A stretch of DNA of 64,000 nucleotides from a virus. Its lineage: Duplodnaviria > Heunggongvirae > Uroviricota > Caudoviricetes. Each line of letters starts with the position of its first letter. The first letter of the stretch is position 1. A program made the translations under genes and the position numbers. The notes under the pieces are model-generated. The model saw only the letters and a list, made by a program, of their open reading frames with translations. It was not told the origin of the DNA and made no database searches. This document shows positions 7,298 to 58,187 of this stretch, piece after piece. The stretch is taken from IMG/VR virus record IMGVR_UViG_3300031555_004037; one strand, written 5' to 3'.

Positions 7298-8611
7298 ATG
7301 ATACAGTTACAAGCATTAAATCATATTATTAAAAATAAAGATGAAGACTTTTTAATGTTGTATAATGATGAATTTTATTCAAATTATAAAGATGAATTTA
7401 ATTTTATTTTGCAACATTATAATAAATATAAAACTATTCCAGATGCTAGTACCGTTCTTGATAAATTTCAAGATTTTAGTATTATGGATATTTCAGAATC
7501 TCGTGATTATCTTATTCAAAGATTACACGAAGAACTTACATATAGTGCTACTGCAAAGGCAATTAACGAAACAGACTTTACAAAAGACGCTGTAAAGGCA
7601 CATCAAGATTTATTAAATAAGTTATTAAGTATTCCACAATCTAAAAGAGAATATGGTATTGATATTGTTAAATCTGCAAAAGAAAGATATGACACTCTTA
7701 TAGATAAACAGAATAATGAAGAGGCTTATATGTTTAGTACAGGTCTTAATGAATTAGATATGTCTATTGACGGTCTTCAAAGAGGGGAAGAATTAGTTGT
7801 AGTGTTTGCTAGAACTAATAACTGTAAATCTTGGATTGCTGAAAAGTTAGCAGTTTCAGTTTGGGAAGAGGGCTATAATGTTGGTTTCTTTTCTCCAGAA
7901 ATGAGTCCTTTATCTGTTGGTTATCGTTTTGATACTTTACACAAACATTTTGATAATAAGGGTATTTTAGGTTCAAATAGAGAATTTGACCCTACTGATT
8001 ATAAGAAATATGTGGATAAATTAACTAAAAAAGATACTGTTTTTAGTGTAACAACTCCTATGGATTTCAATAAAAATGTTACTGTATCAGCAATTAAACA
8101 ATGGGTAACAAGATTAAAGTTACAAATGATTGTTATTGATGGTATTACTTATATGAAGAACGAAAGAAGTAATGGTCGTCAAAATACTACTGAAAGACTT
8201 ACTGATATTTCAGAAGATTTAATGACATTAAGTGTTGAATTAGGTATTCCTATTGTTATTGTAGTACAAGCCAATAGAGAGGCTGCAAGAGATAAAGACG
8301 GAGAAGTAAATGATGACGCACCAGAACTTGATACAATTCGTGGTTCTGACGGTATTTCTCATAATGCAAGTAAAGTTATTTCAGTTGTACATAGAAAAGA
8401 AACTATCACATTATATATCAATAAGAATAGAAATGGTCAAGTAGGACAGAAACTTATTTATAATTATGATGTAAATACAGGTACATTTACTTATATTGAT
8501 AACCCTAAATCAGGTTTAGGAATTGATACAACTACTAACACAAATAATACTAACAATGAAATGCCAACGGAAGGACTTGCAAGTTTATTTAATGATAGTG
8601 GGGAATTATAA
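7298..8611 (+). CDS. dnaB: DnaB-like replicative DNA helicase
   Basis: RecA-fold C-terminal domain with GEELVVVFARTNNCKS (P-loop variant), Walker B MIVIDGITYM, and a DnaB-like N-terminal domain. Confidence 0.8.
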   Translation: MIQLQALNHIIKNKDEDFLMLYNDEFYSNYKDEFNFILQHYNKYKTIPDASTVLDKFQDFSIMDISESRDYLIQRLHEELTYSATAKAINETDFTKDAVKAHQDLLNKLLSIPQSKREYGIDIVKSAKERYDTLIDKQNNEEAYMFSTGLNELDMSIDGLQRGEELVVVFARTNNCKSWIAEKLAVSVWEEGYNVGFFSPEMSPLSVGYRFDTLHKHFDNKGILGSNREFDPTDYKKYVDKLTKKDTVFSVTTPMDFNKNVTVSAIKQWVTRLKLQMIVIDGITYMKNERSNGRQNTTERLTDISEDLMTLSVELGIPIVIVVQANREAARDKDGEVNDDAPELDTIRGSDGISHNASKVISVVHRKETITLYINKNRNGQVGQKLIYNYDVNTGTFTYIDNPKSGLGIDTTTNTNNTNNEMPTEGLASLFNDSGEL

Positions 8612-9549
8612 TGAAAATTGATACTTTAGAAATTCAAGCAACCACACAAGCAATTTTAGATAAACTATTTTTAGATTGTAAATTAAAGAAAAAGGTATTC
8701 TTTCAAAAGGGATATAAGGACATTGGCGATTATTATATGGTACAATGTCCTTATCATAAATTCGGACAAGAAAGAAAACCATCAGCACAGTTTAGAAAGA
8801 AAGATGCTTTATTTTATTGTTTTGGTTGTAAAGAAACACATTCTATTATGTCTGTAATTCAATATTGTTTAGACGAAAATGGTAGAAAATGGCTTTTAGA
8901 TAATTTTGAATATGCTAATGTAGAAGAAAGAAAAATTGAATTTAATATAGAAGATAAGAAAAATCCTAAAAAAGAATATATAGATAAAGATATATTAAAA
9001 CAATTTAGATTTACACATCCATATATGTTTGAGAGAAAACTAGATATTGATACTATTCGTAAATTTGACATTGGATATGATAAGGAAAGAGATTGTATAA
9101 CATTTCCTGTTAAAGATATAAATGGTAATATTTTATTTATTGCTACTAGAAATATTAAAAATAAATTTTTCCATTATCCAACAGATGTAGATAAACCTTT
9201 ATATGGTTATTATGAGATTTTAAGAGAAATTCGTAAAGGTAATGATATAAAGGAAATTTATATTTGTGAATCTATGTTAGACGCTTTATTTATTTGGAGA
9301 TGTGGTAAATATGCTATTGCTTTAAATGGAACAGGTTCTACTTATCAATATGATTTATTAAAGAAATCAGATTTTAGAGTATTGATTTTAGCAACAGATA
9401 ATGATGATGCTGGTAAAAAAGCAAGAGAAAGATTAAAGAAATCAATTAAAAATAAAATTATTAAAGAAATTGATTATTCTAGTTATGGAGATTGTAAAGA
9501 TATAAATGATATGACAGAAGAACAATTCCTTAATGCTAAAATCATTTAA
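8611..9549 (+). CDS. dnaG: DnaG-like DNA primase (CHC2 zinc finger + TOPRIM)
   Basis: CPYHKFG...FYCFGCKETHS zinc-binding motif; TOPRIM IYICESMLDAL ... LATDNDDAGKKA. Confidence 0.8.
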   Translation: MKIDTLEIQATTQAILDKLFLDCKLKKKVFFQKGYKDIGDYYMVQCPYHKFGQERKPSAQFRKKDALFYCFGCKETHSIMSVIQYCLDENGRKWLLDNFEYANVEERKIEFNIEDKKNPKKEYIDKDILKQFRFTHPYMFERKLDIDTIRKFDIGYDKERDCITFPVKDINGNILFIATRNIKNKFFHYPTDVDKPLYGYYEILREIRKGNDIKEIYICESMLDALFIWRCGKYAIALNGTGSTYQYDLLKKSDFRVLILATDNDDAGKKARERLKKSIKNKIIKEIDYSSYGDCKDINDMTEEQFLNAKII

Positions 9550-11454: not shown

Positions 11455-12270
11455 GTGTTTATTGTGAAATTAAATCAAAATAATATTAAACCAGAAGATA
11501 AACAATTAGCCTTAAATGTTAGAAATTATCTTGTTGCAGGAAATAGAGTTATAGGCGACCCTGGAGAAGGGTTACGACAAACTTTAATGAAATTGGAATA
11601 TGAACGAGATAATAAGAATTATGGTATTACTGATTGGAAAATGAAAGATGCTGAATTAAATCAACAAATTTCTTTAACAAAAGCAGGAATTGAAGGGGAA
11701 ATTCAATTATGTGATTATCTTTCTACTTTAATTAAGTATGATGATAAATTAAATGGATTAGTAGCATTTGCAAGTTTATCTTATGATTTTGGAGATGGTG
11801 TAAATAAAGATTATATTCCTGATACTGATACATTATTAGTATATGGTAGACACGCATTAGTTATAGATGCCAAAAATCTAAAAACAAAACCTAATCAATG
11901 TCTTATGATAGTTGAGGGTGGATTTGTAATTGACGCTGATAAAGAAAAAGAACTTATATCTGTAAATCCGTCTACTCATATATGGAGAAAAGTAATGGAA
12001 GATGCAAATATTCAGTTAGATTCTATTGATGGATATGTATGTATTGTAAATGATACAGAAATTGAAATTATTAGAAATGAATATTGGTACGAATGTAATA
12101 CAAAACTCATCCATATAAGTGAATTAAAAGATATTTTAGAAGATTGGGTACAAGGAAAAGATAACACATTATATTTAGATATGTTGACCGAAATTTCAAA
12201 GGCACAAATTAAAAAAGAGAAAAATATTTCCTTTGATATTGACGCAATTAAAAGAAAATTTAATGTATAA
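11455..12270 (+). CDS. hypothetical protein, possible PD-(D/E)xK nuclease
   Basis: DTDTLLVYGRHALVIDAKNLK resembles a D...(D/E)xK motif; weak. Confidence 0.3.
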   Translation: MFIVKLNQNNIKPEDKQLALNVRNYLVAGNRVIGDPGEGLRQTLMKLEYERDNKNYGITDWKMKDAELNQQISLTKAGIEGEIQLCDYLSTLIKYDDKLNGLVAFASLSYDFGDGVNKDYIPDTDTLLVYGRHALVIDAKNLKTKPNQCLMIVEGGFVIDADKEKELISVNPSTHIWRKVMEDANIQLDSIDGYVCIVNDTEIEIIRNEYWYECNTKLIHISELKDILEDWVQGKDNTLYLDMLTEISKAQIKKEKNISFDIDAIKRKFNV

Positions 12271-12274: not shown

Positions 12275-12325
12275 TATATCAATATAAGTTAAAGTGTGAA
12301 CTTTTTAATGAAATATTGATATAAT
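12275..12325 (+). promoter_or_regulatory. 12-bp inverted repeat overlapping a TGaTATAAT promoter (operator candidate)
   Basis: TATATCAATATA (12275-12286) and its reverse complement (12313-12324); the -10 TATAAT at 12320-12325 lies inside the right arm. Confidence 0.4.
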
Positions 12326-12376: not shown

Positions 12377-12922
12377 ATGAACAGAAATGATGAATTTGAA
12401 AAGATTAAGATTACAAAAGCAAGTACAAATAAGGCGTGTACAAATGTTTATTATGACTCATTTGGAATCGAAAAGGTGCGTTTCTCAAATGCCTCATATA
12501 CGGATAAGACAAGCATTGATTGTTACCTCGACTTTGAGGATATAGCCTTACTTGCTACTGATGCTGCAAGTGGTAGGATTTTTAAGGAATTAGAATCTGG
12601 ACCTAAAACTATTACAATGGGTGGTAGCAAGTCCTCAAAGAGATTTGACGGTAAACCTGAATCAAGAGTAATGTCACTCGGTAAGTCAGGAGATAAGATT
12701 TTCATTAATATGACCGCTGGTAAGGGTAAGATTGGTGATACTGGTCTTATTGTACCTGATGGACAACCTGATAAGAAAATTTCAGTTGCTATGCCGATTG
12801 ACAAGTTCCGTTCTATGATTATTTACACAAATAATTGGGTAAATGGCTATCTTGCTCATATGACTACTCGTATGGTTCGTGAGGCAGAAGAGGCTCGTAA
12901 GAACGCAACAAATAAAGAATAA
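12377..12922 (+). CDS. hypothetical protein; isolated, probably highly expressed unit with GC-richer codons
   Basis: 181 aa; own promoter, strong RBS AAAGGAGATTAAAATTATG, strong downstream terminator; locally higher GC (a long antisense ORF appears only here). Confidence 0.5.
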   Translation: MNRNDEFEKIKITKASTNKACTNVYYDSFGIEKVRFSNASYTDKTSIDCYLDFEDIALLATDAASGRIFKELESGPKTITMGGSKSSKRFDGKPESRVMSLGKSGDKIFINMTAGKGKIGDTGLIVPDGQPDKKISVAMPIDKFRSMIIYTNNWVNGYLAHMTTRMVREAEEARKNATNKE

Positions 12923-12969: not shown

Positions 12970-13012
12970 GTGGGTAATGCTGACTTAAACTAAAGTGTTA
13001 CCCACTTTTTAT
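12970..13012 (+). terminator. rho-independent terminator
   Basis: Stem GTGGGTAA/TTACCCAC followed by TTTTT. Confidence 0.7.
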
Positions 13013-13032
13013 ATAAATTTTTATAAAACTGT

Positions 13033-13060
13033 ATACAAACAGATTAAAAAGTGTTATAAT
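13033..13060 (+). promoter_or_regulatory. sigma-A-like promoter (ATACAA -16- TGtTATAAT)
   Basis: -35-like ATACAA 13033-13038; extended -10 GTGTTATAAT 13051-13060; upstream of RNAP beta-like gene. Confidence 0.45.
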
Positions 13061-13096: not shown

Positions 13097-15319
13097 ATGA
13101 CAATTCCAGAGTTATTTGAAAAAGAATTAGCCTTTTGGACTTCCGTAAATCAGTCATTTTTAGGTGTTACACCTATTGATGATACTTTAGATTTTGCAGA
13201 TATTCAAAAGGGTATTGATGAAGATTGTGCAAAATATTGGAATACGGATAATCCTTGTAAATTGGCTCGTAATTTGAATAATGGTCTTCTTAATAAAGAC
13301 GCAAGTAAGCAGACAAAACACTCTTATCAGTTAAAATTAAACTTTTATAATATGTGTATTGATGTGTATGGAGAATATGGGGATAAATTATTAAAAATTT
13401 GTGCCATTCCCACTCCTTGTAATGATTTATGTTGGATTATCAATAAATCTCATTATGTTACAAGAGTTACTGCAATTAAAGATTATTATGGTATAGTTGG
13501 TAAGCGTGATTTTGAAACTGTAAATGGAGAGGGTTGGATTTATAATATCCATAAAGATAGTTTTGAATGTATTGTTAAGAAAGATGAATATAAATTTGAA
13601 CCTACTATTGATGAAATTTATAGTAATCATTTATCAACTCGTTCAAGATTATTATTACAGTCTTGTCTTGGAGATGAAGAATTATCACTTGAAACATTTA
13701 CAAAGGCTTTAAGAAAATTACCTATCTTTGCTAGTGATAGTATTTTTAATTATAAGTTTGCTAGAATGGAATATTTTGAAGATATTGTACTTAATTCTAA
13801 CAAATATGCACAGCCTACAAAGAAGATTTTATTAGGTATTAACACAATTATTGCGTCCAAATCAAAACAGTATACAAAAACGGGAGAAAGAATTGAAGGT
13901 TGTTTAGTGCGTTCTGATAGTAAGATTTTCGCATTAGAGAACTTTAGAACTTGTGTAAATATTTATAAGGGAGAATCAGATTTCCAACCTGCATTTACTT
14001 ATGCAGATACTAATGGTTTTTTTGACTCCTTTAAAACTGTTACTTCAAAATCTGCTGGTCGTCAGAGATTACTTTTGGATAATGTAGTAATTAAGGGTGG
14101 TATGCTTTGGATTGTTGATGATGATGGTACTATGCACAATATGTATGAATATATGGATATGCCACAAAATAAGAGATTATCTTGTTTATCAGAATCTCCT
14201 TTCTGTAATAATGATAAGCCAAAGAGAATTATGATGAACGCAAAAATGACATCACAAGCAGTACCTCTTGTTGGAGAATCAGATGATTTAACTCATCGTA
14301 TTAAGGCTAGAGTAGGATTTACTGATATTGAGGGTTATACATCAGCAGATTCTATTATTATTAGTGAGTCTTTTGCAAAGAAATTAAGAACATTTGAATC
14401 AACTATTTTGTTCTTAAATAAGAAATCAAATTTATTTACTTTGTTAAATAATAATCCTATTTTCAATATAGAAACTTTAAAGGCTATTTTCCCTAATAAG
14501 AATGAAGCAATACTTTCTTCTTATGAGAATTTTCATATTGAAAGAATTGACGATGTTGATGTAAATAATGTTAGAGTATTTCTTGCTTGGGATATTCCTT
14601 TTAGACTTGGAGATAAAATTACAAATCTTCACGGTGCTAAAGGTACAGTAGGACTTATTCTTCCAGACGATAAAATGCCTACATTATTAAATAAAGTGGG
14701 TAATATGGATGCAGGTCCACTTGAAATTATTATTTCTGGTTTCTCTACAATTCGTAGAGGTTCACTTGGTCAGATTTTTGAGGCTTGGGCTTTAGCAAGT
14801 GGTATTGAATTAGATGGTAATGATTATATTGCAAATATGATTACTAAATATAAAGACCAAATGAAAGAATTTAGTGATAATTCAGTTGTAGAATACAATG
14901 GAGTAAAGAAAATTATTCCTGTTGGTATCAATAGTATTATGAGATTATACCATCACGCATCTACTCATATTTCTTGTTCTTCTGCTGATTTTGCTTATAA
15001 GAAGACTTTAAAAATGGGAGAAATGGAAAAATTAAATCTTGTGGCAAATGATTGTCCTAATATTCTTAAAGAATTAGGTATTAGAAGTATTAGTAAGTAT
15101 ATTGCATCTCATAGACATATTAATAATATGGAAAGAACGAGAGAATTACCGAAAAATACACATTTATCATTACAGTTTGTTGAGATTTTAAAATCTATGG
15201 GATATGAATTAATTGTAGATGATAAAAATTCTGTTGATTATTCAGATTTAGATGATGTCGATATTGCAAACTTTAATACTATTATAAAAGGAGAAGATGA
15301 CAATGAAGATAACGATTAA
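13097..15319 (+). CDS. multisubunit RNA polymerase beta-like subunit (C-terminal catalytic part)
   Basis: NLHGAKGTVGLILPDDKMP ~ beta GRHGNKGVISKINPIEDMP; SLGQIFEAWALASG ~ IGQILETHLGMAA; GEMEKLNL ~ GEMEVWAL. Confidence 0.75.
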   Translation: MTIPELFEKELAFWTSVNQSFLGVTPIDDTLDFADIQKGIDEDCAKYWNTDNPCKLARNLNNGLLNKDASKQTKHSYQLKLNFYNMCIDVYGEYGDKLLKICAIPTPCNDLCWIINKSHYVTRVTAIKDYYGIVGKRDFETVNGEGWIYNIHKDSFECIVKKDEYKFEPTIDEIYSNHLSTRSRLLLQSCLGDEELSLETFTKALRKLPIFASDSIFNYKFARMEYFEDIVLNSNKYAQPTKKILLGINTIIASKSKQYTKTGERIEGCLVRSDSKIFALENFRTCVNIYKGESDFQPAFTYADTNGFFDSFKTVTSKSAGRQRLLLDNVVIKGGMLWIVDDDGTMHNMYEYMDMPQNKRLSCLSESPFCNNDKPKRIMMNAKMTSQAVPLVGESDDLTHRIKARVGFTDIEGYTSADSIIISESFAKKLRTFESTILFLNKKSNLFTLLNNNPIFNIETLKAIFPNKNEAILSSYENFHIERIDDVDVNNVRVFLAWDIPFRLGDKITNLHGAKGTVGLILPDDKMPTLLNKVGNMDAGPLEIIISGFSTIRRGSLGQIFEAWALASGIELDGNDYIANMITKYKDQMKEFSDNSVVEYNGVKKIIPVGINSIMRLYHHASTHISCSSADFAYKKTLKMGEMEKLNLVANDCPNILKELGIRSISKYIASHRHINNMERTRELPKNTHLSLQFVEILKSMGYELIVDDKNSVDYSDLDDVDIANFNTIIKGEDDNEDND

Positions 15320-16547
15320 ACAAATTGAAATTGTGGAAGACCCAATGAATGAAGTTACTTCAGATAAGATTTTTATGCCTCGTAAGATTAAAGACGAGAA
15401 TAATAATTACTTATATGACAAAAATGGTATCTTCTCTGAAAGAATTTTTGGTAAATTCAATAAATGTACTTGTGGTAATTTAACAAGACCTGGAATTTGT
15501 CCAGATTGTGATTGTAGAGTTTTGGATAGAAAGAATATTCCAAATTTCTATGTAAAATTCAAATTTGATTTACCTAATAGAGTAATTGATTATTCTGTTA
15601 TTGAAGATAAGAAGAATATTGCTTTAATTAATGATTTAATCAATTTTAGAGGTTTCTTATATGACGGAAATTATGTAGAATTTAATCTTAAAGAAGATAT
15701 GTCAATTTATGATGAAGATAAAATTATCTTTGGTAAAGACGCTGTTTTAAGTACAGGTTTTGTAACAGAAGAGTGGTATGAAGAAAATGTACATAGACTT
15801 ATTAGTATTCCTCATACATCATTTAGAAAGATTACTTTCCAAAATGAGAAATACATTGTAGGTCAATTAAATACTCTCTATATCAATATTATTCGTTTAA
15901 ATAATAAATATGACAAATATAAGAAAGATGGTAAATTAAATTATCTTAATGAATTAAATCTTCGTCATATTGTATGTAGAGAATTAGAATCATTATATGA
16001 AGCATTATTTATGATTTTAGCAAAGAATAAGCGTAATGTAATCACTAATGAGTTACAAGGTCAGCCAGAAACAGGTATGATTAGAGCAGTTATGACTAAT
16101 AATTTTAGTCTTGATGAAGATATTTTACTTATTGGTAGTTATTTTATTGAAACTCTTTATCCTAGATTATATAATCAACATACAGATAAAGATGGAAATA
16201 CAGATATTGATGAAATCAATCGTATTTTAAGAGAAGAAGAGTATTTAGTATTATTTAACAGACAGCCTACTATTGGTGCTAAATCTATTATTGCTATGAA
16301 ACCTATATTCTCTAAATTAGATACAGAGCAGTTCGTTATTCAAGCAAATCCTATTGTTTATGACGGTCTTGCTGCCGATGTAGATGGCGATACATTAAAT
16401 GTTATTGCTTTATATACAAAGGAATCTTGTGAAGAGGCTAGAAAGTTATTAGCAAGTAATAATTATATTGAGGGTTCTAATGCGTCTATTAGAAATGGTA
16501 TGCTTGAAGAGTTTGATTATGTTCAAACTATTTTAGAGGGGGAATAA
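15297..16547 (+). CDS. multisubunit RNA polymerase beta-prime-like subunit, N-terminal part
   Basis: Zinc finger CTCGN...CPDCDC; FNRQPTIGAKSI...ANPIVYDGLAADVDGDTLNV ~ LLNRAPTLHR...NADFDGDQMAV (divergent catalytic Asp triad). Confidence 0.7.
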   Translation: MTMKITIKQIEIVEDPMNEVTSDKIFMPRKIKDENNNYLYDKNGIFSERIFGKFNKCTCGNLTRPGICPDCDCRVLDRKNIPNFYVKFKFDLPNRVIDYSVIEDKKNIALINDLINFRGFLYDGNYVEFNLKEDMSIYDEDKIIFGKDAVLSTGFVTEEWYEENVHRLISIPHTSFRKITFQNEKYIVGQLNTLYINIIRLNNKYDKYKKDGKLNYLNELNLRHIVCRELESLYEALFMILAKNKRNVITNELQGQPETGMIRAVMTNNFSLDEDILLIGSYFIETLYPRLYNQHTDKDGNTDIDEINRILREEEYLVLFNRQPTIGAKSIIAMKPIFSKLDTEQFVIQANPIVYDGLAADVDGDTLNVIALYTKESCEEARKLLASNNYIEGSNASIRNGMLEEFDYVQTILEGE

Positions 16548-16550
16548 TTT

Positions 16551-16964
16551 ATGGCAGAAGAAAATAATAAACCAACAAAACCTAAAAAGTCTAAAAGTAA
16601 ATCTAATATTAAATTAGATAATGGTACTATTATATTTTTTGCAGTTTTAATTATTGCCTTAATTGGTTTTACCATTTTAGTTTTAGTACAAGAATTGAAA
16701 ACAACTTATGTAGTTGATTTTGGAGAAGAAATCAATTCTACTGTTGAAATCAATGAAGATAGAACAAAAATTGATTTAATAGTCAATGTTCAAGGTGCTG
16801 AAACTAAACAACACGGTACATTAACTTTAATTGAAGATAATGAATATAAAGCAGAATTAAAAGTTGGAGAAGATACAACTGAAACTGTTACTGTTATTAT
16901 AGAAGAAAATCAATTAAAACTAATGTATGATGATGGAACAGAAATAATCTATAAGGAGAAATAG
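16551..16964 (+). CDS. small membrane protein (Lys-rich N-terminus, one TM) embedded in RNAP operon
   Basis: KPTKPKKSKSKSN then IIFFAVLIIALIGFTILVLV. Confidence 0.45.
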   Translation: MAEENNKPTKPKKSKSKSNIKLDNGTIIFFAVLIIALIGFTILVLVQELKTTYVVDFGEEINSTVEINEDRTKIDLIVNVQGAETKQHGTLTLIEDNEYKAELKVGEDTTETVTVIIEENQLKLMYDDGTEIIYKEK

Positions 16965-16965
16965 T

Positions 16966-17937
16966 ATGCGTAGCAGAAAAGAATTTGTAGAAAAATATCA
17001 CGAAATTGGAGAGTCAATGTTTGAACATTGTACTATTCCAACTGTTTCTGATTTTGCTAATGCTTTTGTAGATAATAACACAGAAGCAATGGATAAAATC
17101 ACAAAAATTACTTCATATACAGGTAATACAGATGATATTATTAAATCTGTTCAAAGAAGAAATAACAATTATTCAGAACAAGAGTCAAAGAAATTTATGC
17201 AATCTGTTATTGCAGCAAATGTAACTGATATTACTGAATCTGGTTATTTCTATAAAAAACTCATTTCTAGTTGTGACGATATGATTATCGAAATTGACGA
17301 TTGTGGTAGTGATGGTGTTGAATTTAAAATGCCTGTAGACGAAGATACATTTGAATATAAGATTAGAAATCATTGGGTTATGGAACTTAATAAATATGTA
17401 GAAGATTATTCCGAATTACCTAAAAAGGGAACAATTCGTGTTAGAAATTTCCTTTCTTGTAAGCACGGAATTAGAAAATTCTGTAAGAAATGTGCTGGTT
17501 TATATAGACGTTCTTATGATACAGAATTTACACCAAAACATATTGGTATTTATTCTACACTTATGATTACTGAACACGCAACACAAGCATCTTTGGATAG
17601 TATGAATAAGGGTACTGCTGAACCTATCAATGTTATTATTGAGCGTAGTAAGATGGACAAGTCTATTAAAACTATTGAAGATGCAAAAATTGAAATGTCT
17701 AAAATTATAGACAATATTGGTAATGTTGGTGTTGAATCAAGATTTTATGAGATTGCCTTATTATCAAGATGGAGAGATGGAAAGTTTTGTGCTTTACAGA
17801 CTTCATTTTTAAAGCAACCTGATTTATTAGGGGCATTTATTTATAAACCAGGTAAAACAACTTTTAGTAATTTATTACAAGGTGGAACATTTGAAGCAAA
17901 CTCCACAAAAACTAAAATTGCATTTGATAAATATTAA
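16966..17937 (+). CDS. possible RNAP beta-prime C-terminal-like fragment (trigger-loop region) / RNAP-associated subunit
   Basis: IYSTLMITEHATQASLDSMNKGTAEP loosely resembles beta-prime [24 protein letters not shown]; Cys cluster CKHGIRKFCKKCAG; tentative. Confidence 0.3.
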   Translation: MRSRKEFVEKYHEIGESMFEHCTIPTVSDFANAFVDNNTEAMDKITKITSYTGNTDDIIKSVQRRNNNYSEQESKKFMQSVIAANVTDITESGYFYKKLISSCDDMIIEIDDCGSDGVEFKMPVDEDTFEYKIRNHWVMELNKYVEDYSELPKKGTIRVRNFLSCKHGIRKFCKKCAGLYRRSYDTEFTPKHIGIYSTLMITEHATQASLDSMNKGTAEPINVIIERSKMDKSIKTIEDAKIEMSKIIDNIGNVGVESRFYEIALLSRWRDGKFCALQTSFLKQPDLLGAFIYKPGKTTFSNLLQGGTFEANSTKTKIAFDKY

Positions 17938-19745: not shown

Positions 19746-21065
19746 ATGAGTAAAATAGGAGAACAAAACAGAGCAACTAATGGTCAAATGATGACTATAG
19801 TTGATTATCGAAATTCCTATGATATTGATGTGAAATTTGAAGATGGTTGTATTGTTAAAAATAAGGCATATCAGTCTTTTAAGAAAGGTTCGATTAGAAA
19901 TCCAAGTTTGACAAAAGATACACCGAAACAATCTAATTTAAAAACACATAATAAAATAGGAGAAAGTAAAATTGCTAATAATGGTCAAAAGATGACTATT
20001 ATTGAATATTTTGCAGCAGACAACATAACAGTTGAATTTGAAGATGGTACGATTGTTAAAAATCGAGCCTATCAATCATTTAAAAATGGTTCTATTAAAA
20101 ACCCTACTACAAAAGCAAATTTTGATGCAACTCTTCAAAAAATGACTAATAAAAGAATTGGGGAAAAATCTATGAGTTCTTGTGGAATTGGTATGACTAT
20201 TATTGCATATCGTTCTGCAAAAGACATTGATGTAAAATTTGAAGACGGTACTGTGGTACAAAATGTTTGGTATAACAGATTTAAGTCAGGAAATGTTAAA
20301 CACCCTATTGCAGGTAAAGACGGTATTCGATTAGGTGCAACAAATACTAATAAGGATAATCGTAAAATGAAAATTGCTGAATATATCAATTCAAATAATA
20401 TTATAGTTGAATTTGAAGATGGTGTACGACTTAAAACCTCATATAAAGCATTTAAAGACGGTATTGCTAAACATCCTGCTGACGGTTCTTGTAGACATAT
20501 TGGAGAAATTGTAACTGCTAAAAATGGTCAAAAAGCAACTCTCAAAGAGTGGAAGAGCAATAGAAATATTGTGGTTGAATTTGAAGATGGAACAGTTATA
20601 AATACAAGTTATAGGTATTTTAAAGAGGGTAAAATTGGAAACCCTAATTATACTTTAAATGATAGATGTAGAGAAAAGAGAATTGGAGAAACATCTATAT
20701 CAACTAATGGACAGAAAATTACTATTATTGATTATATTAAGTCAAATGATATTAAAGTACAATTTGAAGATGGTGTAATTGTAGAACACGCACATTATAA
20801 TTCTTTTAAAAATGGTACTATTCATAATCCAAAAATGCCTTTAATTAAAAAGGGAAATAATAGTAAAATTCGTATGGGGGAAACTAAAAAAGCTAATAAT
20901 GGTATGAATATGACTATTATTGCTTATAGAAAATCTAACGATATTGATGTTAAATTTGAAGATGGTACTGTTGTAACAAATAAAAACTATCAAGATTTTA
21001 AATCAGGAGAAATTAGAAACCCTAATGTTTCCTTATCATCATATTCTAAAAAATATAATAAATAA
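19746..21065 (+). CDS. protein made of seven tandem ~60-aa repeats (unknown repeat family)
   Basis: Seven units of IGExxxxxNGQxMTIIxYxxxxDIxVxFEDGTxVxNxxYxxFKxGxIxNP. Confidence 0.6.
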   Translation: MSKIGEQNRATNGQMMTIVDYRNSYDIDVKFEDGCIVKNKAYQSFKKGSIRNPSLTKDTPKQSNLKTHNKIGESKIANNGQKMTIIEYFAADNITVEFEDGTIVKNRAYQSFKNGSIKNPTTKANFDATLQKMTNKRIGEKSMSSCGIGMTIIAYRSAKDIDVKFEDGTVVQNVWYNRFKSGNVKHPIAGKDGIRLGATNTNKDNRKMKIAEYINSNNIIVEFEDGVRLKTSYKAFKDGIAKHPADGSCRHIGEIVTAKNGQKATLKEWKSNRNIVVEFEDGTVINTSYRYFKEGKIGNPNYTLNDRCREKRIGETSISTNGQKITIIDYIKSNDIKVQFEDGVIVEHAHYNSFKNGTIHNPKMPLIKKGNNSKIRMGETKKANNGMNMTIIAYRKSNDIDVKFEDGTVVTNKNYQDFKSGEIRNPNVSLSSYSKKYNK

Positions 21066-23500: not shown

Positions 23501-23848
23501 TTATTTTTTATTTCTCGCTAATTCAAGTCCTTTTTCAATATTAAAGATAATAGGAATAAAATATAATAAATCTCCATCATCAATATCTAAATCTGAAAAT
23601 TCTATTTCATTTATATCCCCCTCTGTAATACATAACATTAGTTCTTCAACATTTAGTTTACATAATAATAAAAGTTCATCTTGATTTAATACTGAACACA
23701 ATTCATTTAAAGTAGACATAAAAATATCATCTTCTGCAAAATGAAACTCTAATTCATCTTTAATAATATTTTTTAAATCAACTCCACCCTTAAACATTTG
23801 TAAGGGTTCAACATTAACAGCAATAGTAATTTTTTTACGATAGTGCAT
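23501..23848 (-). CDS. acidic hypothetical protein (paralogue of 23932-24456)
   Basis: Shared N-terminal motif VNVEPLQMFKGGVDLKNIIKDEL; RBS AAGGAG 9 nt upstream on the minus strand. Confidence 0.5.
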   Translation of the reverse strand: MHYRKKITIAVNVEPLQMFKGGVDLKNIIKDELEFHFAEDDIFMSTLNELCSVLNQDELLLLCKLNVEELMLCITEGDINEIEFSDLDIDDGDLLYFIPIIFNIEKGLELARNKK

Positions 23849-23888
23849 AATAATATACTCCTTTCATATTTTATTATAATTAAATAGA

Positions 23889-23923
23889 ATAAAAAATAAG
23901 GGAGATATTTTAATTCTCCCTTA
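23889..23923 (-). terminator. rho-independent terminator for the minus-strand gene
   Basis: TAAGGGAGA...TCTCCCTTA; T-run on the minus strand. Confidence 0.5.
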
Positions 23924-23931
23924 TATATTAT

Positions 23932-24456
23932 TTATTTGTCTTCTTCAGAAAATATACCAATACCATTAACGAAGTCAAAAGCACCTTGATAATCCCATTC
24001 CATTTTATCCTTTGTAAAAAACAACTCTGCCTTGTTAAGATTTAAAGTAATAGGTATCATAACTGACATTGTACCATATATAAAATTGTCTACCTCTTCA
24101 TCAGTTTCTAAATCTTCCAAATCTTTCAATTCATCCACATTCAAGGTTAATTCATCTTCATTGTATCTGTCTAAATGAATATCATTTGGTTTTTCTACTG
24201 AAACATATCTCATACCCGTTTCCTTAACTTCTAAACATTGCATAAATTCGTCAAAAGTTAATTTAAGTGGTATATAATAATCCCTATTGTCTGTAAATTT
24301 TTCTGCAATAGCATTTGTTATTAAACCCCCTTGATTATAAAATTCATCTCGCAATTTTTCGGTAACTAAATCTTTTACCGTAATACCACCTTCAAACATC
24401 TGTGAAAGATTTACAGAAAAATGATACTGAAAGTCTACTAATTTGTCTTTGTTCAT
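23932..24456 (-). CDS. acidic hypothetical protein (paralogue of 23501-23848)
   Basis: VNLSQMFEGGITVKDLVTEKL; Asp/Glu-rich (DELKDLEDLETDEEVD). Confidence 0.5.
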   Translation of the reverse strand: MNKDKLVDFQYHFSVNLSQMFEGGITVKDLVTEKLRDEFYNQGGLITNAIAEKFTDNRDYYIPLKLTFDEFMQCLEVKETGMRYVSVEKPNDIHLDRYNEDELTLNVDELKDLEDLETDEEVDNFIYGTMSVMIPITLNLNKAELFFTKDKMEWDYQGAFDFVNGIGIFSEEDK

Positions 24457-24458
24457 TA

Positions 24459-24788
24459 TTATGAACCCTCCTTTAATTGTTTTTTATTTATATTATCAAT
24501 AAGTGCTTGTTCTTCTTCATAATTATCTTTATTTGTAAATGGTTCAGGTAAATGTGTCATTACATTATCCCAATCCACTTCTGTACCACAATTATGACAG
24601 AATTTTTCATTATTGCCTAAAATTCTAAAACTCTGTGAACAACAAGAACACTTATAAATAATTTCTTTATATGGATGCCACGATGTAATTTCTGTGGCAG
24701 TAGGTTTCATTTTTGATTTCATTTTTATCTCCTTATAAAAACATTTTGATTTAATTATTATATCAATATTATAAGTTTCTGTATACAA
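24459..24788 (-). CDS. zinc-ribbon protein
   Basis: CSCCSQSFRILGNNEKFCHNCG (Cys4). Confidence 0.5.
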   Translation of the reverse strand: MYTETYNIDIIIKSKCFYKEIKMKSKMKPTATEITSWHPYKEIIYKCSCCSQSFRILGNNEKFCHNCGTEVDWDNVMTHLPEPFTNKDNYEEEQALIDNINKKQLKEGS

Positions 24789-24862
24789 ATTTTTGATTTA
24801 TTTTAATGTTTTTTGGATATAACTACCTTTGAAATAATTAAAAGTTTGTTTATAATTAAAAA

Positions 24863-24881
24863 TTAAGCACTATTTAATTAT
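24863..24881 (+). promoter_or_regulatory. conserved intergenic motif TTAAGCACTATTTAATTAT (copy 2)
   Basis: In the divergent intergenic region, 66 bp upstream of the topoisomerase gene. Confidence 0.45.
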
Positions 24882-24946
24882 GTAAGTATACAAAAAATTA
24901 TTTTTTTGTTATAATAAATAAAAATTATAGAAAGGAAAATTAAATA

Positions 24947-26860
24947 ATGGGAAGTAATTTATACACAGAAAATAGTATTGTTACTGAATCTCCAAGAGAA
25001 TTTACGAGAAGAGTTCCATCTACTTATTTAGGTTCTAGCAAAAAGAATACTAACCTTGTTAAGGAAATCTTTGCCAATGCTGCTGATGAACACAGTATTG
25101 GAAACTGTGATTACATCAAAGTATCTGTAGATACAGATAAAAACATTTATATCGTTGAAGATAATGGACAAGGTTTTCTTGTAAATGCAGGTATTGATGA
25201 AGACGGAGAAACAATTTTACAGCGTTCTTTTGATAAATTAAATACATCAGGTAAAACAACTCAAGATGGTGTTTATCAAGGTACTGCTTTAGGACTAAAT
25301 GGTATTGGTGCAAAACTTACTAACTGGTTATCAAAATCTTTAAATGTAGTTACATATAGAGATGGAGAATTTGAAGAATTAAATTTTACAGATGGTATTT
25401 TTGTTAATAGAAAAGTTGGTAAGAAAGATAGACATTCTGGAACAGTAGTTACTTGGCATCCAGATGAACAATTCTTTGCTGAAAATATTCCTGACGATTT
25501 AGCATTAAAATCACATTTTGAAATTATTGCAGCATTATGTCCAAAATTAACTATTGAATACACTTATAATGGAAATAAAACTGTATATAAAGAGCCTAAT
25601 GGAATTACTGCTTATGTAGAAAGAAAAGTAAATGGGAAAGAATTATTTGCAAATCGTTTCATTATGGAAAGAAATATCGGTAAAGATGTTCTTAATATTT
25701 GTTTAACTTATACATCTGATTATTCAGAAAATATTGACGCTTATGTAAATTTAGGACATACAGATGGTGGAGAGCATATTAAGTCATTCCATACAGCATT
25801 TACAAAGGCTGTAAATAAGTATGCTACTGAAACAAATTTACTTAAAAAGAGTGATAAGAATTTTAGTACAGCCGAAATTTCAGAGGGATTATATGTAGTA
25901 TTTAATATGACTACAACAACTGCAAAATATGACGCACAGAATAAATCAAGAATTGATGATATTGACTCAAAGATTATCAATGCAGTAGTTGGTGGAGATT
26001 TTGCTACTTGGTTAATCAATAATCCTACTGACGCTAAAATTATTGTTGAGAGAGCCTTAACTGCAAGAAAAGCAAGAGAGGCTGCACAGAAAGCAAAGGA
26101 AAAGATTAGAGATGCTGGTAAAGTAAATAAGAAAACATTATTTGTAGATTTACCATCAAAATTATCTGACGCATATCCAAAGAATAAGAAAGATAGAAGT
26201 AATTGTGAAATTTATATCACAGAGGGAGATTCTGCTGCGTCTTCTATCAATGCGACAAAGGATAGTACATTCCAAGCCTGTTTCCCTATTCGTGGTAAGG
26301 TATTATGTTGTCAAAAGGCTACACCAGATAAAGTATTTGGAAATCAAGAAATTTCAAATATTGCAAAAGCACTTGGTCTTGAAATTGACAAATCAACTGG
26401 AAAACTTATTTATGATGCAAAGAAATTAAGATATGTAAGAATTATTATTGCAACTGATGCCGATGCTGATGGTGACGATATTTCTTCATTATTATTAACT
26501 GTGTTTAATTGGTTATGTCCAGAACTTATTGAAAATGGACATATTTATAGAGTATATGGTGCATTATTTAAGGCAACTTTTAATGATGGAACATATATAA
26601 CATTCCAAAACGATGTGGAATTTGAAAATTGGAAAAAGACTAATAAGAAAGCATATAAGTTATCTCGTGCTAAAGGTCTTGGAGAATTAACAAAAGAAGA
26701 AACCTATGAACAGTTAATCAATCCCGAAACAAGAGATTTAAGAAGACTTGTTGCGTCCGATATGGATGAATTTAATAAGTATCTTGAAATGTTTAAGGGT
26801 GCTGATATTGAACCTCGTAGAGCATATCTTGAAGAACATCATAATGATTATGAAGAGTAA
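24947..26860 (+). CDS. type IIA DNA topoisomerase, ATPase/TOPRIM subunit (GyrB/ParE/T4 gp39-like)
   Basis: GHKL ATP-binding FANAADEH; TOPRIM EGDSAASS and IIATDADADGDD. Confidence 0.85.
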   Translation: MGSNLYTENSIVTESPREFTRRVPSTYLGSSKKNTNLVKEIFANAADEHSIGNCDYIKVSVDTDKNIYIVEDNGQGFLVNAGIDEDGETILQRSFDKLNTSGKTTQDGVYQGTALGLNGIGAKLTNWLSKSLNVVTYRDGEFEELNFTDGIFVNRKVGKKDRHSGTVVTWHPDEQFFAENIPDDLALKSHFEIIAALCPKLTIEYTYNGNKTVYKEPNGITAYVERKVNGKELFANRFIMERNIGKDVLNICLTYTSDYSENIDAYVNLGHTDGGEHIKSFHTAFTKAVNKYATETNLLKKSDKNFSTAEISEGLYVVFNMTTTTAKYDAQNKSRIDDIDSKIINAVVGGDFATWLINNPTDAKIIVERALTARKAREAAQKAKEKIRDAGKVNKKTLFVDLPSKLSDAYPKNKKDRSNCEIYITEGDSAASSINATKDSTFQACFPIRGKVLCCQKATPDKVFGNQEISNIAKALGLEIDKSTGKLIYDAKKLRYVRIIIATDADADGDDISSLLLTVFNWLCPELIENGHIYRVYGALFKATFNDGTYITFQNDVEFENWKKTNKKAYKLSRAKGLGELTKEETYEQLINPETRDLRRLVASDMDEFNKYLEMFKGADIEPRRAYLEEHHNDYEE

Positions 26861-30378: not shown

Positions 30379-30537
30379 ATGAGAAGATTAAGAAATGAAT
30401 TAAAATCAATTAAATGGTTAAAGAGTGATGATGTAATGAAACAAACATTATTAGTGACAAGTGTGACAGTTTTAAGTGGTGCAATTCTATTAGGACTTGA
30501 CACTCTTGTACAATATATTATTGGAATTATCGTATAA
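30379..30537 (+). CDS. secE: SecE translocase subunit (52 aa; not in ORF track)
   Basis: MRRLRNELKSIKWLKSDDVMKQTLLVTSVTVLSGAILLGLDTLVQYIIGIIV ~ Bacillus SecE (K-x-x-W-P ... single TM ... LLD); RBS AAGGGAG; directly downstream of secY. Confidence 0.7.
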   Translation: MRRLRNELKSIKWLKSDDVMKQTLLVTSVTVLSGAILLGLDTLVQYIIGIIV

Positions 30538-30546
30538 GGAGATAAT

Positions 30547-31227: not shown

Positions 31228-31250
31228 AAAGAAAAAGGAGATTATTTAAA

Positions 31251-32780: not shown

Positions 32781-32842
32781 AAAAATTATTAGTAGAGTAC
32801 GGTCTAAAAAGGTCGTACTCTATTATAATGTAAGGAGATAAT

Positions 32843-56053: not shown

Positions 56054-56059
56054 AAAGGA

Positions 56060-56849: not shown

Positions 56850-56855
56850 AATTAT

Positions 56856-56883: not shown

Positions 56884-56914
56884 AATTATAGTTAAGTGAA
56901 AGTGAGGAAATTAA

Positions 56915-58177: not shown

Positions 58178-58187
58178 GGGGTAAATT

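What the first reader, a model, noticed from the sequence alone, without database searches (positions are those of the whole stretch)
13097..17937. Split, highly divergent multisubunit RNA polymerase (beta-like, beta-prime-N-like, possible beta-prime-C-like)
The 740-aa ORF carries the beta motifs HGAKGTV...DDKMP and GEMEK. The next ORF has the beta-prime zinc finger plus FNRQPT and a variant catalytic triad AADVDGD (canonical NADFDGD). A third ORF loosely resembles the trigger-loop segment. Subunits split over several genes, with a small membrane protein gene interleaved, is the arrangement of phiKZ/AR9-type jumbo phage RNAPs. The D-V-D-G-D variant and the missing beta N-terminal half inside this window are noteworthy.
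Basis: partly seen in the sequence, partly recalled or inferred. Interest (0 to 1): 0.6.

Follow-up and report, generated by a model that had tools for sequence, protein, structure and literature searches.

The report
Compact three-gene phage RNA polymerase
An uncultured huge phage of animal guts and the human body carries its own miniature cell-type RNA polymerase, built from one short beta protein and a beta-prime protein split into two genes; this is a real but previously uncatalogued variant of a known kind of phage enzyme.

Summary

The phiKZ/AR9 reading is only partly right. Beta-prime is split after its catalytic barrel, as in those phages. Beta is not split, though: the fold comparison suggests the 740-aa protein also covers the beta N-terminal part, so the evidence does not support a missing half. 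The proteins score better against bacterial beta/beta-prime than against phiKZ/AR9. Their nearest outside relatives are 1150-1300-aa fused beta-beta-prime proteins.

The family is widespread in metagenomes: over 150 clusters at 90% identity, on contigs of 170-530 kb. It falls outside the published "mReC" selection criteria.

Two substitutions hold across the homologue sets examined. The catalytic-loop Asn is Ala or Gly, and the trigger-loop Arg and His are Asp and Asn.

A Whirly-fold nucleic-acid-binding protein (12377-12922) sits directly upstream of beta in every locus. This parallels ChmC next to the polymerase genes of nucleus-forming phages.

Verdict: a new variant of a known kind, of moderate interest.

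The parts
12317..12325 (+). Extended -10 promoter-like element (TGATATAAT) upstream of the Whirly-fold gene
   Evidence: TGWTATAAT occurs 23 times in the window against 9.8 +/- 2.9 expected, and 0 of 100 shuffles reach 23. In the + strand count (16 occurrences), 11 fall in the 7.9% of sequence that is intergenic.
12377..12922 (+). 181-aa Whirly-fold nucleic-acid-binding protein ('u181'); candidate polymerase-associated factor
12970..13010 (+). Terminator-like hairpin (12-bp stem) followed by a U run, separating u181 from the polymerase operon
   Evidence: RNA fold -17.8 kcal/mol, z -4.83 against shuffles; sequence read.
13032..13060 (+). Sigma-70/sigma-A-type promoter-like site (TATACA-17-TGtTATAAT) 37 nt upstream of the beta start codon
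   Evidence: Consensus match only; function is inferred.
13097..15319 (+). Compact, unsplit RNAP beta subunit homologue (740 aa)
14195..14269 (+). Beta conserved segment SPFCNNDKPKRIMMNAKMTSQAVPL, equivalent to bacterial [24 protein letters not shown]
   Evidence: Alignment. F369, N372, K376, R377, M379, M380, K383 and Q387 are invariant in 35 sequences.
14609..14680 (+). Beta double-psi beta-barrel active-site segment GDK..HGAKG..DDKMP
   Evidence: G505, D506, K507, H512, G513, A514, K515 and G516 are invariant. The position equivalent to E. coli K1073 is Leu here, and L17/K8/R5 across the family.
15017..15031 (+). Beta GEMEK motif (bacterial GEME)
   Evidence: G641, E642 and E644 are invariant.
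15297..16547 (+). Beta-prime N-terminal subunit (416 aa); overlaps the beta gene by 23 nt
   Evidence: Pfam Rpb1_2. PDB profile E 3.7e-14 with three collinear stretches: Zn ribbon, lid/clamp-helix start and catalytic barrel.
15465..15509 (+). N-terminal zinc ribbon CxC-x8-CxxC of beta-prime
   Evidence: Aligns to beta-prime residues 42-86 of PDB 8k60_D. It is deleted in the human-associated ~200-kb subgroup.
16371..16391 (+). Catalytic loop AADVDGD (canonical NADFDGD)
   Evidence: The three Asp are invariant. The first position is always A or G and never N; the x position is V/C/Y/M/F/T. This holds in all 21 full-length homologues.
16551..16964 (+). 137-aa single-pass membrane protein gene lying between the two beta-prime genes; probably a passenger, not a polymerase part
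   Evidence: One hydrophobic helix at aa 27-45. Homologues at only 32-37% identity, and only in the closest loci. It is replaced by other genes, or by >34 kb, elsewhere.
16966..17937 (+). Beta-prime C-terminal subunit (323 aa)
   Evidence: PDB profile E 1.4e-5 to beta-prime. hhalign to E. coli beta-prime 784-988. hhalign prob 94%, E 1.4e-7, residues 88-320 against 1015-1263 of the 1271-aa fused protein P0404, whose tail is Pfam Rpb1_5. tblastn hits only annotated phage beta-prime genes.
17206..17283 (+). Bridge helix (VIAANVTDITESGYFYKKLISSCDDM)
   Evidence: Aligns to E. coli [21 protein letters not shown]. S92, G93 and K97 are invariant.
17302..17493 (+). Second zinc site: C113, C165, C173, C176
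   Evidence: All four Cys are invariant in 33 sequences and align to the E. coli beta-prime C814/C888/C895/C898 region.
17542..17613 (+). Trigger loop N-terminal arm (IGIYSTLMITEHATQASLDSMNKG)
   Evidence: Aligns to E. coli [25 protein letters not shown]. The positions of R933 and H936 are D and N, within a nearly invariant LDSMN.

Best explanation
The segment encodes a complete, miniaturised, cell-type (two-barrel) DNA-dependent RNA polymerase of an uncultured huge phage. It has three polypeptides: an unsplit compact beta (740 aa), beta-prime-N (416 aa) and beta-prime-C (323 aa), about 1,480 aa in total.

Shown: the homology of the three proteins, their conserved catalytic residues, and the fact that the two beta-prime pieces are independent genes.

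Inferred mechanism: the two barrels form the active site. Beta contributes the invariant Lys515, and beta-prime-N contributes the three invariant Asp that hold Mg2+. Beta-prime-C supplies the bridge helix and trigger loop for translocation and the nucleotide-addition cycle.

Inferred expression: the genes form a translationally coupled operon behind an extended -10 promoter of host type. The enzyme would therefore be made after infection by the host polymerase, a 'non-virion' type. It would then transcribe other (probably late) phage genes independently of the host core enzyme.

Also inferred: the Whirly-fold protein encoded just upstream is probably a single-stranded nucleic-acid-binding partner, either an mRNA/ssDNA chaperone or a specificity factor.
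For: Homology and fold:
- Pfam hits above threshold for beta and beta-prime-N.
- Profile hits to solved beta and beta-prime for all three proteins, collinear with the bacterial subunits.
- AF2 model plus Foldseek E ~1e-20, with alignments spanning almost the whole target.

Selection:
- The catalytic Asp triad, beta Lys515, GEME, the bridge-helix SG.FYKK, four Zn cysteines and the trigger loop are invariant or nearly so in the 21-35 homologues aligned for each protein; identity to the window protein falls to about 40-48%.
- There are 166, 158 and 85 homologous clusters for beta, beta-prime-C and u181.

Gene organisation:
- A u181 homologue upstream of an adjacent beta / beta-prime-N gene pair in 26 of 26 loci.
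- Beta-prime-C lies adjacent, about 5 kb away, or 34-50 kb away in the same genomes. It is therefore a genuine trans-acting subunit gene, not a broken gene.

Completeness:
- ORF4 aligns up to its own C-terminus with the C-terminus of a 1271-aa fused beta-beta-prime protein that has Rpb2_6 + Rpb1_2 + Rpb1_5.
- P0356 is an in-family beta / beta-prime-N fusion.

Phage context:
- IMG/VR viral contigs of 170-467 kb and ENA contigs up to 532 kb.
- No hit in 185,579 species genomes.
- Phage-type replication genes in the window.

Promoter:
- TGWTATAAT is enriched (23 against 9.8 expected) and concentrated in intergenic regions, including 13052-13060.
Against: No biochemical evidence exists.
- The roughly 90 N-terminal residues of ORF4, and its last ~50 residues, have no assignment against bacterial beta-prime.
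- The bacterial beta-prime regions between about residue 510 and the bridge helix, and after the trigger loop (jaw, C-terminal clamp), are unaccounted for. They could be encoded elsewhere.
- The trigger-loop Arg and His, and the Asn of NADFDGD, are replaced. Each of these matters for catalysis or sugar selection in bacterial enzymes.
- The second active-site Lys of beta is Leu in this genome.
- Only 64 kb of a genome of at least 324 kb was visible, so further subunits, a second polymerase set, and the target promoters are all unknown.
- No capsid or terminase gene lies in the window.
Confidence: 0.82

Rival explanations
1. It is a member of the phiKZ/AR9 (Chimalliviridae-type) jumbo-phage polymerase family: a non-virion RNAP made of split beta and split beta-prime plus a gp68/gp226-type fifth subunit, with a second, virion-packaged set elsewhere.
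For: - Beta-prime is split right after the catalytic barrel, the split site shared by phiKZ/AR9 and cyanobacteria (PMC7598289).
- A Whirly-fold protein sits next to the polymerase genes, as ChmC does in Chimalliviridae.
- tblastn of beta finds only phiKZ-like phage beta genes in GenBank phages.
Against: - Beta does not appear to be split: it matches both the AR9 beta-C chain and the separate chain taken to be beta-N.
- Profile scores to bacterial beta (E 4e-17) exceed those to AR9 (2.4e-11) and phiKZ (1e-5).
- No gp68-like protein is detectable in the window.
- u181 has no sequence similarity to PhiPA3 ChmC.
- There is one beta and one beta-prime-N locus per viral contig in pattern-limited scans.
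- The nearest outside relatives are compact fused beta-beta-prime proteins, not split ones.
Confidence: 0.08
2. The phage subunits do not work alone. They replace the host beta and beta-prime in a hybrid enzyme that still uses host alpha, omega and/or sigma-A, and so reads the TGnTATAAT promoters seen throughout the window.
For: - Extended -10 elements of host type are enriched upstream of genes across the window.
- Sequence affinity is closest to bacterial, especially Firmicute, beta.
- Beta-prime-N keeps the segment aligning to the start of the clamp helices, the main sigma docking site in bacteria (the sigma role is from established knowledge).
Against: - The same promoters are explained more simply by host RNAP transcribing early and middle genes.
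- The subunits are heavily reduced (740 against ~1200 aa; 739 against ~1200-1400 aa), so many host-contact surfaces are likely gone.
- The characterised phage multisubunit RNAPs work without alpha or omega (PMC7598289).
- No direct test was possible.
Confidence: 0.07
3. The genes are cellular: rpoB and rpoC of a tiny-genome bacterium mis-binned as virus, or decaying remnants of captured host genes without function.
For: - One homologous contig of 504 kb is deposited at NCBI as 'MAG: Bacilli bacterium'.
- The window also carries SecY, FtsH, gyrase A/B, DnaB, RecA and NAD ligase homologues.
Against: - No relative was found in one genome of each of 185,579 bacterial and archaeal species.
- IMG/VR lists the contigs as viral.
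- There are no tRNAs or ribosomal genes in 64 kb.
- Several genes match phage families best: UvsX-like recombinase, and phage topoisomerase II at E 1.9e-108.
- Strong conservation of catalytic residues in the 21-35 homologues aligned per protein, out of 85-166 clusters found, rules out decay.
Confidence: 0.02
4. The enzyme has the two-barrel fold but a different activity, for example primer synthesis, relaxed rNTP/dNTP selection, or RNA-templated synthesis, rather than ordinary transcription.
For: - The Asn of NADFDGD is always Ala or Gly. From established knowledge, this residue contributes to ribose recognition in bacterial RNAP.
- The trigger-loop Arg and His are Asp and Asn.
- The operon lies within a replication and repair module next to primase, helicase and nuclease genes.
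Against: - D-x-D-G-D without the Asn is usual in divergent phage two-barrel transcriptases (PMC7598289 gives the universal motif as DxDGD).
- The overall beta and beta-prime architecture with Zn sites, lid, bridge helix and trigger loop is that of transcriptases.
- A DnaG-type primase is already encoded at 8611-9549.
Confidence: 0.05

Closest known systems
phiKZ / AR9 / PBS2 jumbo-phage multisubunit RNA polymerases (non-virion type)
   Same: - Phage-encoded beta/beta-prime homologues.
- Beta-prime split into two polypeptides after the catalytic barrel.
- No alpha or omega homologue seen nearby.
- A Whirly-fold protein gene next to the polymerase genes (ChmC in Chimalliviridae).
   Different: - Beta is one 740-aa chain here, not two or three.
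- Beta-prime-C is 323 aa.
- No gp68/gp226-like subunit was found in the window.
- Beta, beta-prime-N and often beta-prime-C are in bacterial rpoB-rpoC order in one operon.
- Sequence affinity is nearer to bacterial beta than to the phiKZ/AR9 beta chains; the phiKZ/AR9 beta-prime chains did not appear among the 60 best matches to the beta-prime-N or beta-prime-C profiles.
- No evidence for a second, virion set.
Compact fused beta-beta-prime proteins of about 1150-1300 aa from metagenomes (e.g. P0404, P0426, found here) and the 1525-aa fused protein gp206 of Salmonella phage Arash / Vibrio phage D69
   Same: - Same beta then beta-prime order and similar total size.
- They are the nearest outside relatives of the beta profile (E 1e-26 to 1e-15).
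- Pfam Rpb2_6 + Rpb1_2 + Rpb1_5 in one chain.
- ORF4 aligns to the very C-terminus of P0404.
- One family member (P0356) is itself a beta / beta-prime-N fusion.
   Different: - Here the enzyme is in three polypeptides, and the third gene can lie tens of kb away.
- The fused proteins are uncharacterised. P0404 sits on a 7.9-kb contig beside DarT/Macro genes.
- Arash gp206 lies beside the portal gene.
mReC: multisubunit-RNAP-encoding Caudovirales (Weinheimer and Aylward 2020, PMC7481178)
   Same: Uncultured tailed phages, including host-associated ones, that encode beta and beta-prime related to the cellular enzymes.
   Different: mReC was defined with subunits of at least 800 aa and a NADxDGD motif. 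Here beta is 740 aa, beta-prime-N is 416 aa and the motif is AADVDGD, so this clade fails those selection criteria.
Cyanobacterial / plastid RNAP (gamma + beta-prime from rpoC1 and rpoC2)
   Same: Beta-prime is divided between the catalytic barrel and the bridge helix. The cyanobacterial gamma subunit is among the best hits of the beta-prime-N profile (E 5.6e-14).
   Different: Cellular enzymes have full-size subunits, alpha2 and omega, sigma factors, and canonical NADFDGD and trigger-loop residues.
ChmC (Chimallin C) of nucleus-forming jumbo phages
   Same: Small Whirly-fold protein encoded beside non-virion RNAP genes.
   Different: No detectable sequence similarity (hhalign probability 3%). 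It has 181 aa against 252 aa and no Asn-rich tail. RNA binding, and any nucleus-like compartment, are untested here.

Membership tests
Two-barrel (double-psi beta-barrel) multisubunit-type RNA polymerases (beta/beta-prime superfamily) | Beta-type barrel with GDK...HG.KG and an active-site lysine | tested here: met
Two-barrel (double-psi beta-barrel) multisubunit-type RNA polymerases (beta/beta-prime superfamily) | Beta-prime-type barrel with the metal-binding D-x-D-G-D loop | tested here: met
   Pfam Rpb1_2 E 5.1e-8. DxDGD is invariant in 21 homologues.
Two-barrel (double-psi beta-barrel) multisubunit-type RNA polymerases (beta/beta-prime superfamily) | Bridge helix and trigger loop | tested here: met
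   ORF4 profile aligns to E. coli beta-prime 784-988. Trigger-loop TQ is conserved, but Arg and His are replaced by Asp and Asn.
Two-barrel (double-psi beta-barrel) multisubunit-type RNA polymerases (beta/beta-prime superfamily) | DNA-templated RNA synthesis | not testable with these tools
   Needs biochemistry.
phiKZ/AR9-type jumbo-phage RNAP | Beta encoded as separate N- and C-terminal polypeptides | tested here: not met
   One 740-aa chain matches both the AR9 beta-C chain (287 residues) and the AR9 chain deposited as beta subunit, taken here to be beta-N (221 residues). It also aligns over 515-542 residues to full-length subunits; aligned ranges were not returned.
phiKZ/AR9-type jumbo-phage RNAP | Beta-prime split after the catalytic barrel | tested here: met
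   ORF2 ends about 50 residues after DxDGD. ORF4 begins before the bridge helix. The two are separate genes, up to tens of kb apart.
phiKZ/AR9-type jumbo-phage RNAP | Fifth subunit homologous to phiKZ gp68 / AR9 gp226 | tested here: inconclusive
   phmmer of the PhiPA3 gp68 homologue against all window ORFs gave only noise. This is a single-sequence test of only 64 kb of a genome of at least 324 kb. AR9 gp226 was not tested.
phiKZ/AR9-type jumbo-phage RNAP | Two paralogous sets (virion and non-virion) | tested here: inconclusive
   None in the window. There is one beta and one beta-prime-N locus per IMG/VR contig, but those scans depend on conserved peptide patterns and would miss a divergent paralogue.
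phiKZ/AR9-type jumbo-phage RNAP | Closest sequence relatives are phiKZ/AR9-type subunits | tested here: not met
   Bacterial beta E 4e-17, against AR9 2.4e-11 and phiKZ 1e-5. The nearest outside relatives are fused compact proteins.
mReC (Weinheimer and Aylward 2020) | Beta and beta-prime each at least 800 aa, with NADxDGD | tested here: not met
   740 aa, 416 aa and AADVDGD. Criteria are quoted from PMC7481178.
Single-polypeptide two-barrel phage RNAPs (YonO, crAss gp66 type) | Both barrels in one chain | tested here: not met
   The barrels lie in separate ORFs that overlap by 23 nt in different frames, although P0356 in the family is fused.
ChmC-like Whirly proteins | Whirly (beta4-alpha x2) fold | tested here: met
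ChmC-like Whirly proteins | Sequence homology to ChmC | tested here: not met
   hhalign probability 3% against PhiPA3 gp61. tblastn against phages found no match.
ChmC-like Whirly proteins | Binds phage mRNA and associates with a nuclear shell | not testable with these tools
   Needs experiments. No chimallin homologue could be sought beyond the window.

The most novel reading that the evidence does not exclude
This may be close to the smallest multisubunit-type RNA polymerase core, about 1,480 aa in three chains, and may work without alpha or omega. It lacks the trigger-loop Arg/His pair and the ribose-sensing Asn. Its constant genomic partner, a Whirly-fold single-strand binder, would be an integral specificity or mRNA-handling subunit. 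This would be analogous to AR9 gp226 or to ChmC, but it arose in a separate lineage of gut and oral huge phages. If so, the clade would give a minimal, tractable model of two-barrel transcription, and would hint that polymerase-plus-Whirly coupling is a general solution among huge phages.
Probability: 0.2. Interest if true: 0.75.

Novelty: new variant of a known kind. Interest (0 to 1): 0.5.

Why it matters
Phage-encoded cell-type RNA polymerases are the only natural examples of this universal enzyme working without its assembly platform. So far, detailed study has centred on the phiKZ/AR9 lineage.

This family shows a different solution, with four features:
- a beta about 60% of bacterial size, kept whole;
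- a beta-prime cut in two and reduced to 739 aa;
- conserved loss of three residues thought important for catalysis and sugar selection;
- a fixed Whirly-fold neighbour.

The family is abundant in rumen, animal-gut and human-associated metagenomes. It nevertheless fell outside the one systematic survey checked here (mReC), because of that survey's length and motif filters, and no description of it turned up in the limited literature searches made here.

It could serve as a minimal model for how two-barrel polymerases assemble and catalyse. It could also serve as a marker gene for an undescribed clade of 200-530-kb phages.

Tried and rejected
- **DNA and tblastn searches of GenBank phages.** blastn of the segment found no match. 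tblastn of the 626-aa orphan ORF 42268-44148 found nothing, so no case for a chimallin-like protein could be made.
- **Scan of 185,579 species genomes** with the beta profile: no relative.
- **First IMG/VR scan with the single beta-prime-N sequence** failed. Profile-based scans worked.
- **Region H in ORF4.** I suspected by eye that the last ~60 residues of ORF4 carry beta-prime 'region H'. A sub-profile search against E. coli RpoC gave nothing, so I dropped the claim. The end-to-end match to the fused protein P0404 is used instead to argue completeness.
- **u181 against PhiPA3 ChmC** by hhalign: no similarity. u181 profile against PDB sequences: no hit.
- **PhiPA3 gp62 (gp68-like), gp63, gp64 and a vRNAP subunit** against all window ORFs: noise only.
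- **Lak megaphage origin: considered unlikely.** No DNA or protein match in the phage collection beyond barrel motifs. Lak phages are described as lacking an RNAP (PMC7824862). Whether Lak genomes are actually in the searched collection was not checked.
- **Programmed frameshift fusing beta and beta-prime-N: considered unlikely.** The overlap length varies (4-26 nt) among relatives, which is typical of translational coupling.
- **Generic sigma-70 scan** of the segment was not above chance (39 against 42 expected). Only the specific extended -10 word is enriched.

Full report
**Observation**

- 13097-15319 (740 aa)
- 15297-16547 (416 aa; overlaps the first by 23 nt)
- 16551-16964 (137 aa)
- 16966-17937 (323 aa)

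All quoted motifs are present at the residues and coordinates listed under 'parts'.

The window is 27% G+C, and nearly all its genes are on one strand.

**Beta**

- Pfam places RNA_pol_Rpb2_6 on residues 488-593 (E 5.6e-10, above the gathering score).
- A profile of 35 family members (A1) hits solved bacterial beta subunits at E 4.4e-17. Three collinear stretches cover B. subtilis beta 603-1173: PF..ND..R.(L/M)M..(N/K)M..QAVP, GY.(Y/S).D(A/S)II(M/I)SE, and GDK..HG.KG..(D/E)MP through GEME to the C-terminus.
- The AlphaFold model is good (pLDDT 82.8, pTM 0.81).
- Foldseek finds RNAP beta chains at E ~1e-20, with alignments spanning almost the whole target (about 950-1090 columns for targets of 950-1140 residues).
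- The C-terminal homology region is only about 395 residues. The N-terminal ~345 residues must therefore also be beta-like.

I conclude that this is most likely a compact, unsplit beta. The evidence does not support the 'missing N-terminal half'. This step rests on aligned-length arithmetic, because the tools do not return residue ranges.

**Beta-prime N**

- Pfam places RNA_pol_Rpb1_2 on residues 305-385 (E 5.1e-8).
- A profile of 16 homologues taken from related loci (A3) hits beta-prime and cyanobacterial gamma at about E 4e-14. Three collinear stretches are matched: the N-terminal zinc ribbon, the lid/clamp-helix start (IPHTSFRKI...LNTLYINIIRLNNKY against PVIPPDLRP...DLNDLYRRVINRNNRL) and the catalytic barrel.
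- Across 21 full-length homologues the catalytic loop reads [A/G]-D-x-D-G-D. The three Asp are invariant, and the canonical Asn never occurs.
- The zinc ribbon is deleted in one subgroup.

**Beta-prime C**

Single-sequence Pfam evidence was only a faint Rpb1_5 hit. Stronger evidence came from four sources.
- A profile of 33 homologues (A2) hits E. coli-type beta-prime at E 1.4e-5.
- hhalign aligns residues 83-269 to E. coli 784-988.
- The alignment covers the bridge helix (ITESGYFYKKLISS against [14 protein letters not shown]), the four cysteines of the second zinc site (all invariant) and the trigger loop (ITEHATQASLDSMNKG against [18 protein letters not shown]).
- tblastn against GenBank phages hits only annotated beta-prime genes, for example Ralstonia phage RP13 at E 1e-5.

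The positions of E. coli R933 and H936 are Asp and Asn, within an almost invariant LDSMN.

**Completeness and relatives**

An exhaustive profile search of 1.84 billion representatives found 47 clusters at E <= 1e-30; this is the family itself. After a gap come proteins of 1150-1300 aa at E 1e-26 to 1e-15.

Pfam shows that most of the seven proteins sampled are single chains with Rpb2_6 followed by Rpb1_2, and two of them (P0404, P0426) also carry Rpb1_5. They are compact fused beta-beta-prime enzymes. P0356 (1091 aa) is a beta / beta-prime-N fusion within the family.

ORF4 residues 88-320 align with residues 1015-1263 of the 1271-aa protein P0404 (probability 94%, E 1.4e-7). ORF4 therefore ends where a complete compact enzyme ends.

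This argues that the three ORFs together form a complete core of about 1,480 aa. It does not prove that no further subunit exists.

**Genomic behaviour**

Exact or near copies occur on contigs up to 323,839 bp. Relatives occur on contigs up to 532,570 bp and on IMG/VR viral contigs of 170-467 kb. None is found in one genome per species of GTDB.

In 26 of 26 loci a u181 homologue lies upstream of an adjacent beta / beta-prime-N pair, immediately upstream in most.

The position of beta-prime-C varies:
- It follows after one small membrane-protein gene in the closest relatives.
- It follows after two or five unrelated genes in others.
- It lies 34-50 kb away in the human-associated ~200-kb group.

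The split is therefore old and the pieces are independent genes. The interleaved 137-aa membrane protein is a variable passenger.

**Expression signals**

A 12-bp hairpin with a U run (-17.8 kcal/mol, z -4.8) ends the u181 gene.

Thirty-seven nucleotides upstream of the beta start codon lies TATACA-17-TGTTATAAT. The word TGWTATAAT occurs 23 times against 9.8 expected (0 of 100 shuffles reach this). In the + strand count (16 occurrences), 11 fall in the 7.9% of sequence that is intergenic, typically 30-45 nt before start codons.

I infer that this replication and transcription module, including the polymerase operon, is read by the host sigma-A-type enzyme. On that reading, the phage polymerase is a post-infection ('non-virion') enzyme for other genes. 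This is inference only.

**The Whirly neighbour**

In nucleus-forming phages, the Whirly-fold RNA-binding protein ChmC is likewise encoded beside non-virion RNAP genes and is needed for middle and late expression (10.1101/2023.09.22.559000; PhiPA3 map).

There is no sequence similarity between the two. I treat this as a functional parallel, not as family membership.

**Comparison with known systems**

- *phiKZ/AR9.* These share the beta-prime split site and the apparent lack of alpha and omega (PMC7598289). They differ in having a split beta, a gp68/gp226 subunit (not found here), two sets, and lower sequence similarity to this family than bacterial beta has.
- *mReC.* This clade was selected for subunits of at least 800 aa and NADxDGD (PMC7481178), and so excludes this family by construction.
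- *Lak megaphages.* These are reported to lack an RNAP (PMC7824862).
- *Fused beta-beta-prime proteins.* They exist in cultured phages (Arash gp206, 1525 aa, beside the portal gene) and in metagenomes. This family is the split counterpart of that compact class.

**Verdict**

This is a genuine, conserved, phage-encoded multisubunit-type RNA polymerase. It is a new variant of a known kind, neither a phiKZ/AR9 member nor incomplete.

Identity as an RNAP is near certain. Autonomy from host subunits, its target genes and the role of the Whirly protein are all inferred.

Interest is moderate: it lies in the extreme compaction, the conserved loss of canonical catalytic-accessory residues, and the conserved Whirly partner.

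Noticed in passing
window 29023-34651: A run of membrane-biogenesis and quality-control genes on a phage-like genome: SecY (Pfam E 9.9e-77), a 226-aa ORF, a flotillin/SPFH protein, and a full FtsH (AAA + M41 peptidase). No paper in the library mentions SecY together with 'huge phages'.
   Followed up: partly
window 54959-57706: The NAD-dependent DNA ligase is split into two genes: adenylation + OB domains at 54959-56053, and Zn-finger + HhH + BRCT at 56915-57706. Two small ORFs lie between them, one with a HEPN domain (56352-56849). This is a second example, beside beta-prime, of a split core enzyme with inserted genes.
   Followed up: partly
window 49353-51833: An SNF2-family helicase carries an intein (Pfam Intein_splicing E 2.7e-12 at aa 242-394) inside the helicase core.
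   Followed up: no
window, e.g. 5522, 12317, 13052, 22058, 22132, 24907, 39950, 48949, 54916, 56875 (+ strand): The extended -10 word TGWTATAAT is enriched (23 against 9.8 expected) and sits 30-45 nt upstream of many start codons. This suggests host sigma-A-type promoters of a low-G+C Gram-positive-like host. TTTACAAAT and CTATTTAAT also recur in intergenic regions.
   Followed up: partly
P0404 / locus L046 4089-7904; also P0401, P0403, P0413, P0426: Uncharacterised single-chain compact RNAPs of 1150-1300 aa with both barrels; P0404 and P0426 also carry Rpb1_5. P0404 lies on a 7.9-kb contig next to DarT and Macro (DarTG-like) genes. They are the nearest outside relatives of the window's beta.
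   Followed up: partly
L012-L026 (human-associated ~200-kb contigs), alignment A3 columns 84-103: In this subgroup, beta-prime-N has lost the N-terminal zinc ribbon entirely, and the beta-prime-C gene lies 34-50 kb from beta.
   Followed up: yes
window 34709-39892: A 1727-aa protein with about seven BspA-type leucine-rich repeat blocks, plus Big_2, Listeria-Bacteroides repeat and CarboxypepD_reg domains. It looks like a surface or adhesin-like protein, or a virion fibre.
   Followed up: no
window 57776-61230: A cluster of a TcpE-like small membrane protein, a 434-aa orphan, a type II/IV secretion-family ATPase (T2SSE, E 5.4e-35) and a YgjV-like inner-membrane protein. The first three (the TcpE-like protein, the 434-aa orphan and, less clearly, the next ORF) recur about 4-5 kb downstream of beta-prime-C in the human-associated group (L036, L041).
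   Followed up: no
window 19746-21065: A 439-aa protein built of about seven tandem repeats of ~60 aa (…GQKMTII.Y....I.V.FEDG…). It gives faint matches to T4 Gp30.7, DUF2442 and DUF5780.
   Followed up: no
window 23501-24788: The only minus-strand island in the window: three small orphan ORFs of 115, 174 and 109 aa. It coincides with a local drop in GC skew at 24001-26000.
   Followed up: no
window 11455-12270: A 271-aa orphan (no family hit) is conserved at 51-72% identity in all related loci and stays linked to the polymerase region, although its position shifts (upstream here, 5 kb downstream in the human-associated group).
   Followed up: partly
L043 6094-10671 (Salmonella phage Arash gp206); L044 5289-9872 (Vibrio phage D69): Cultured ~180-kb phages encode a ~1525-aa protein, annotated only as 'beta subunit' or hypothetical, that contains both the beta and the beta-prime barrels. 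In Arash it lies next to the portal gene, which suggests a fused, possibly virion-associated RNAP.
   Followed up: partly
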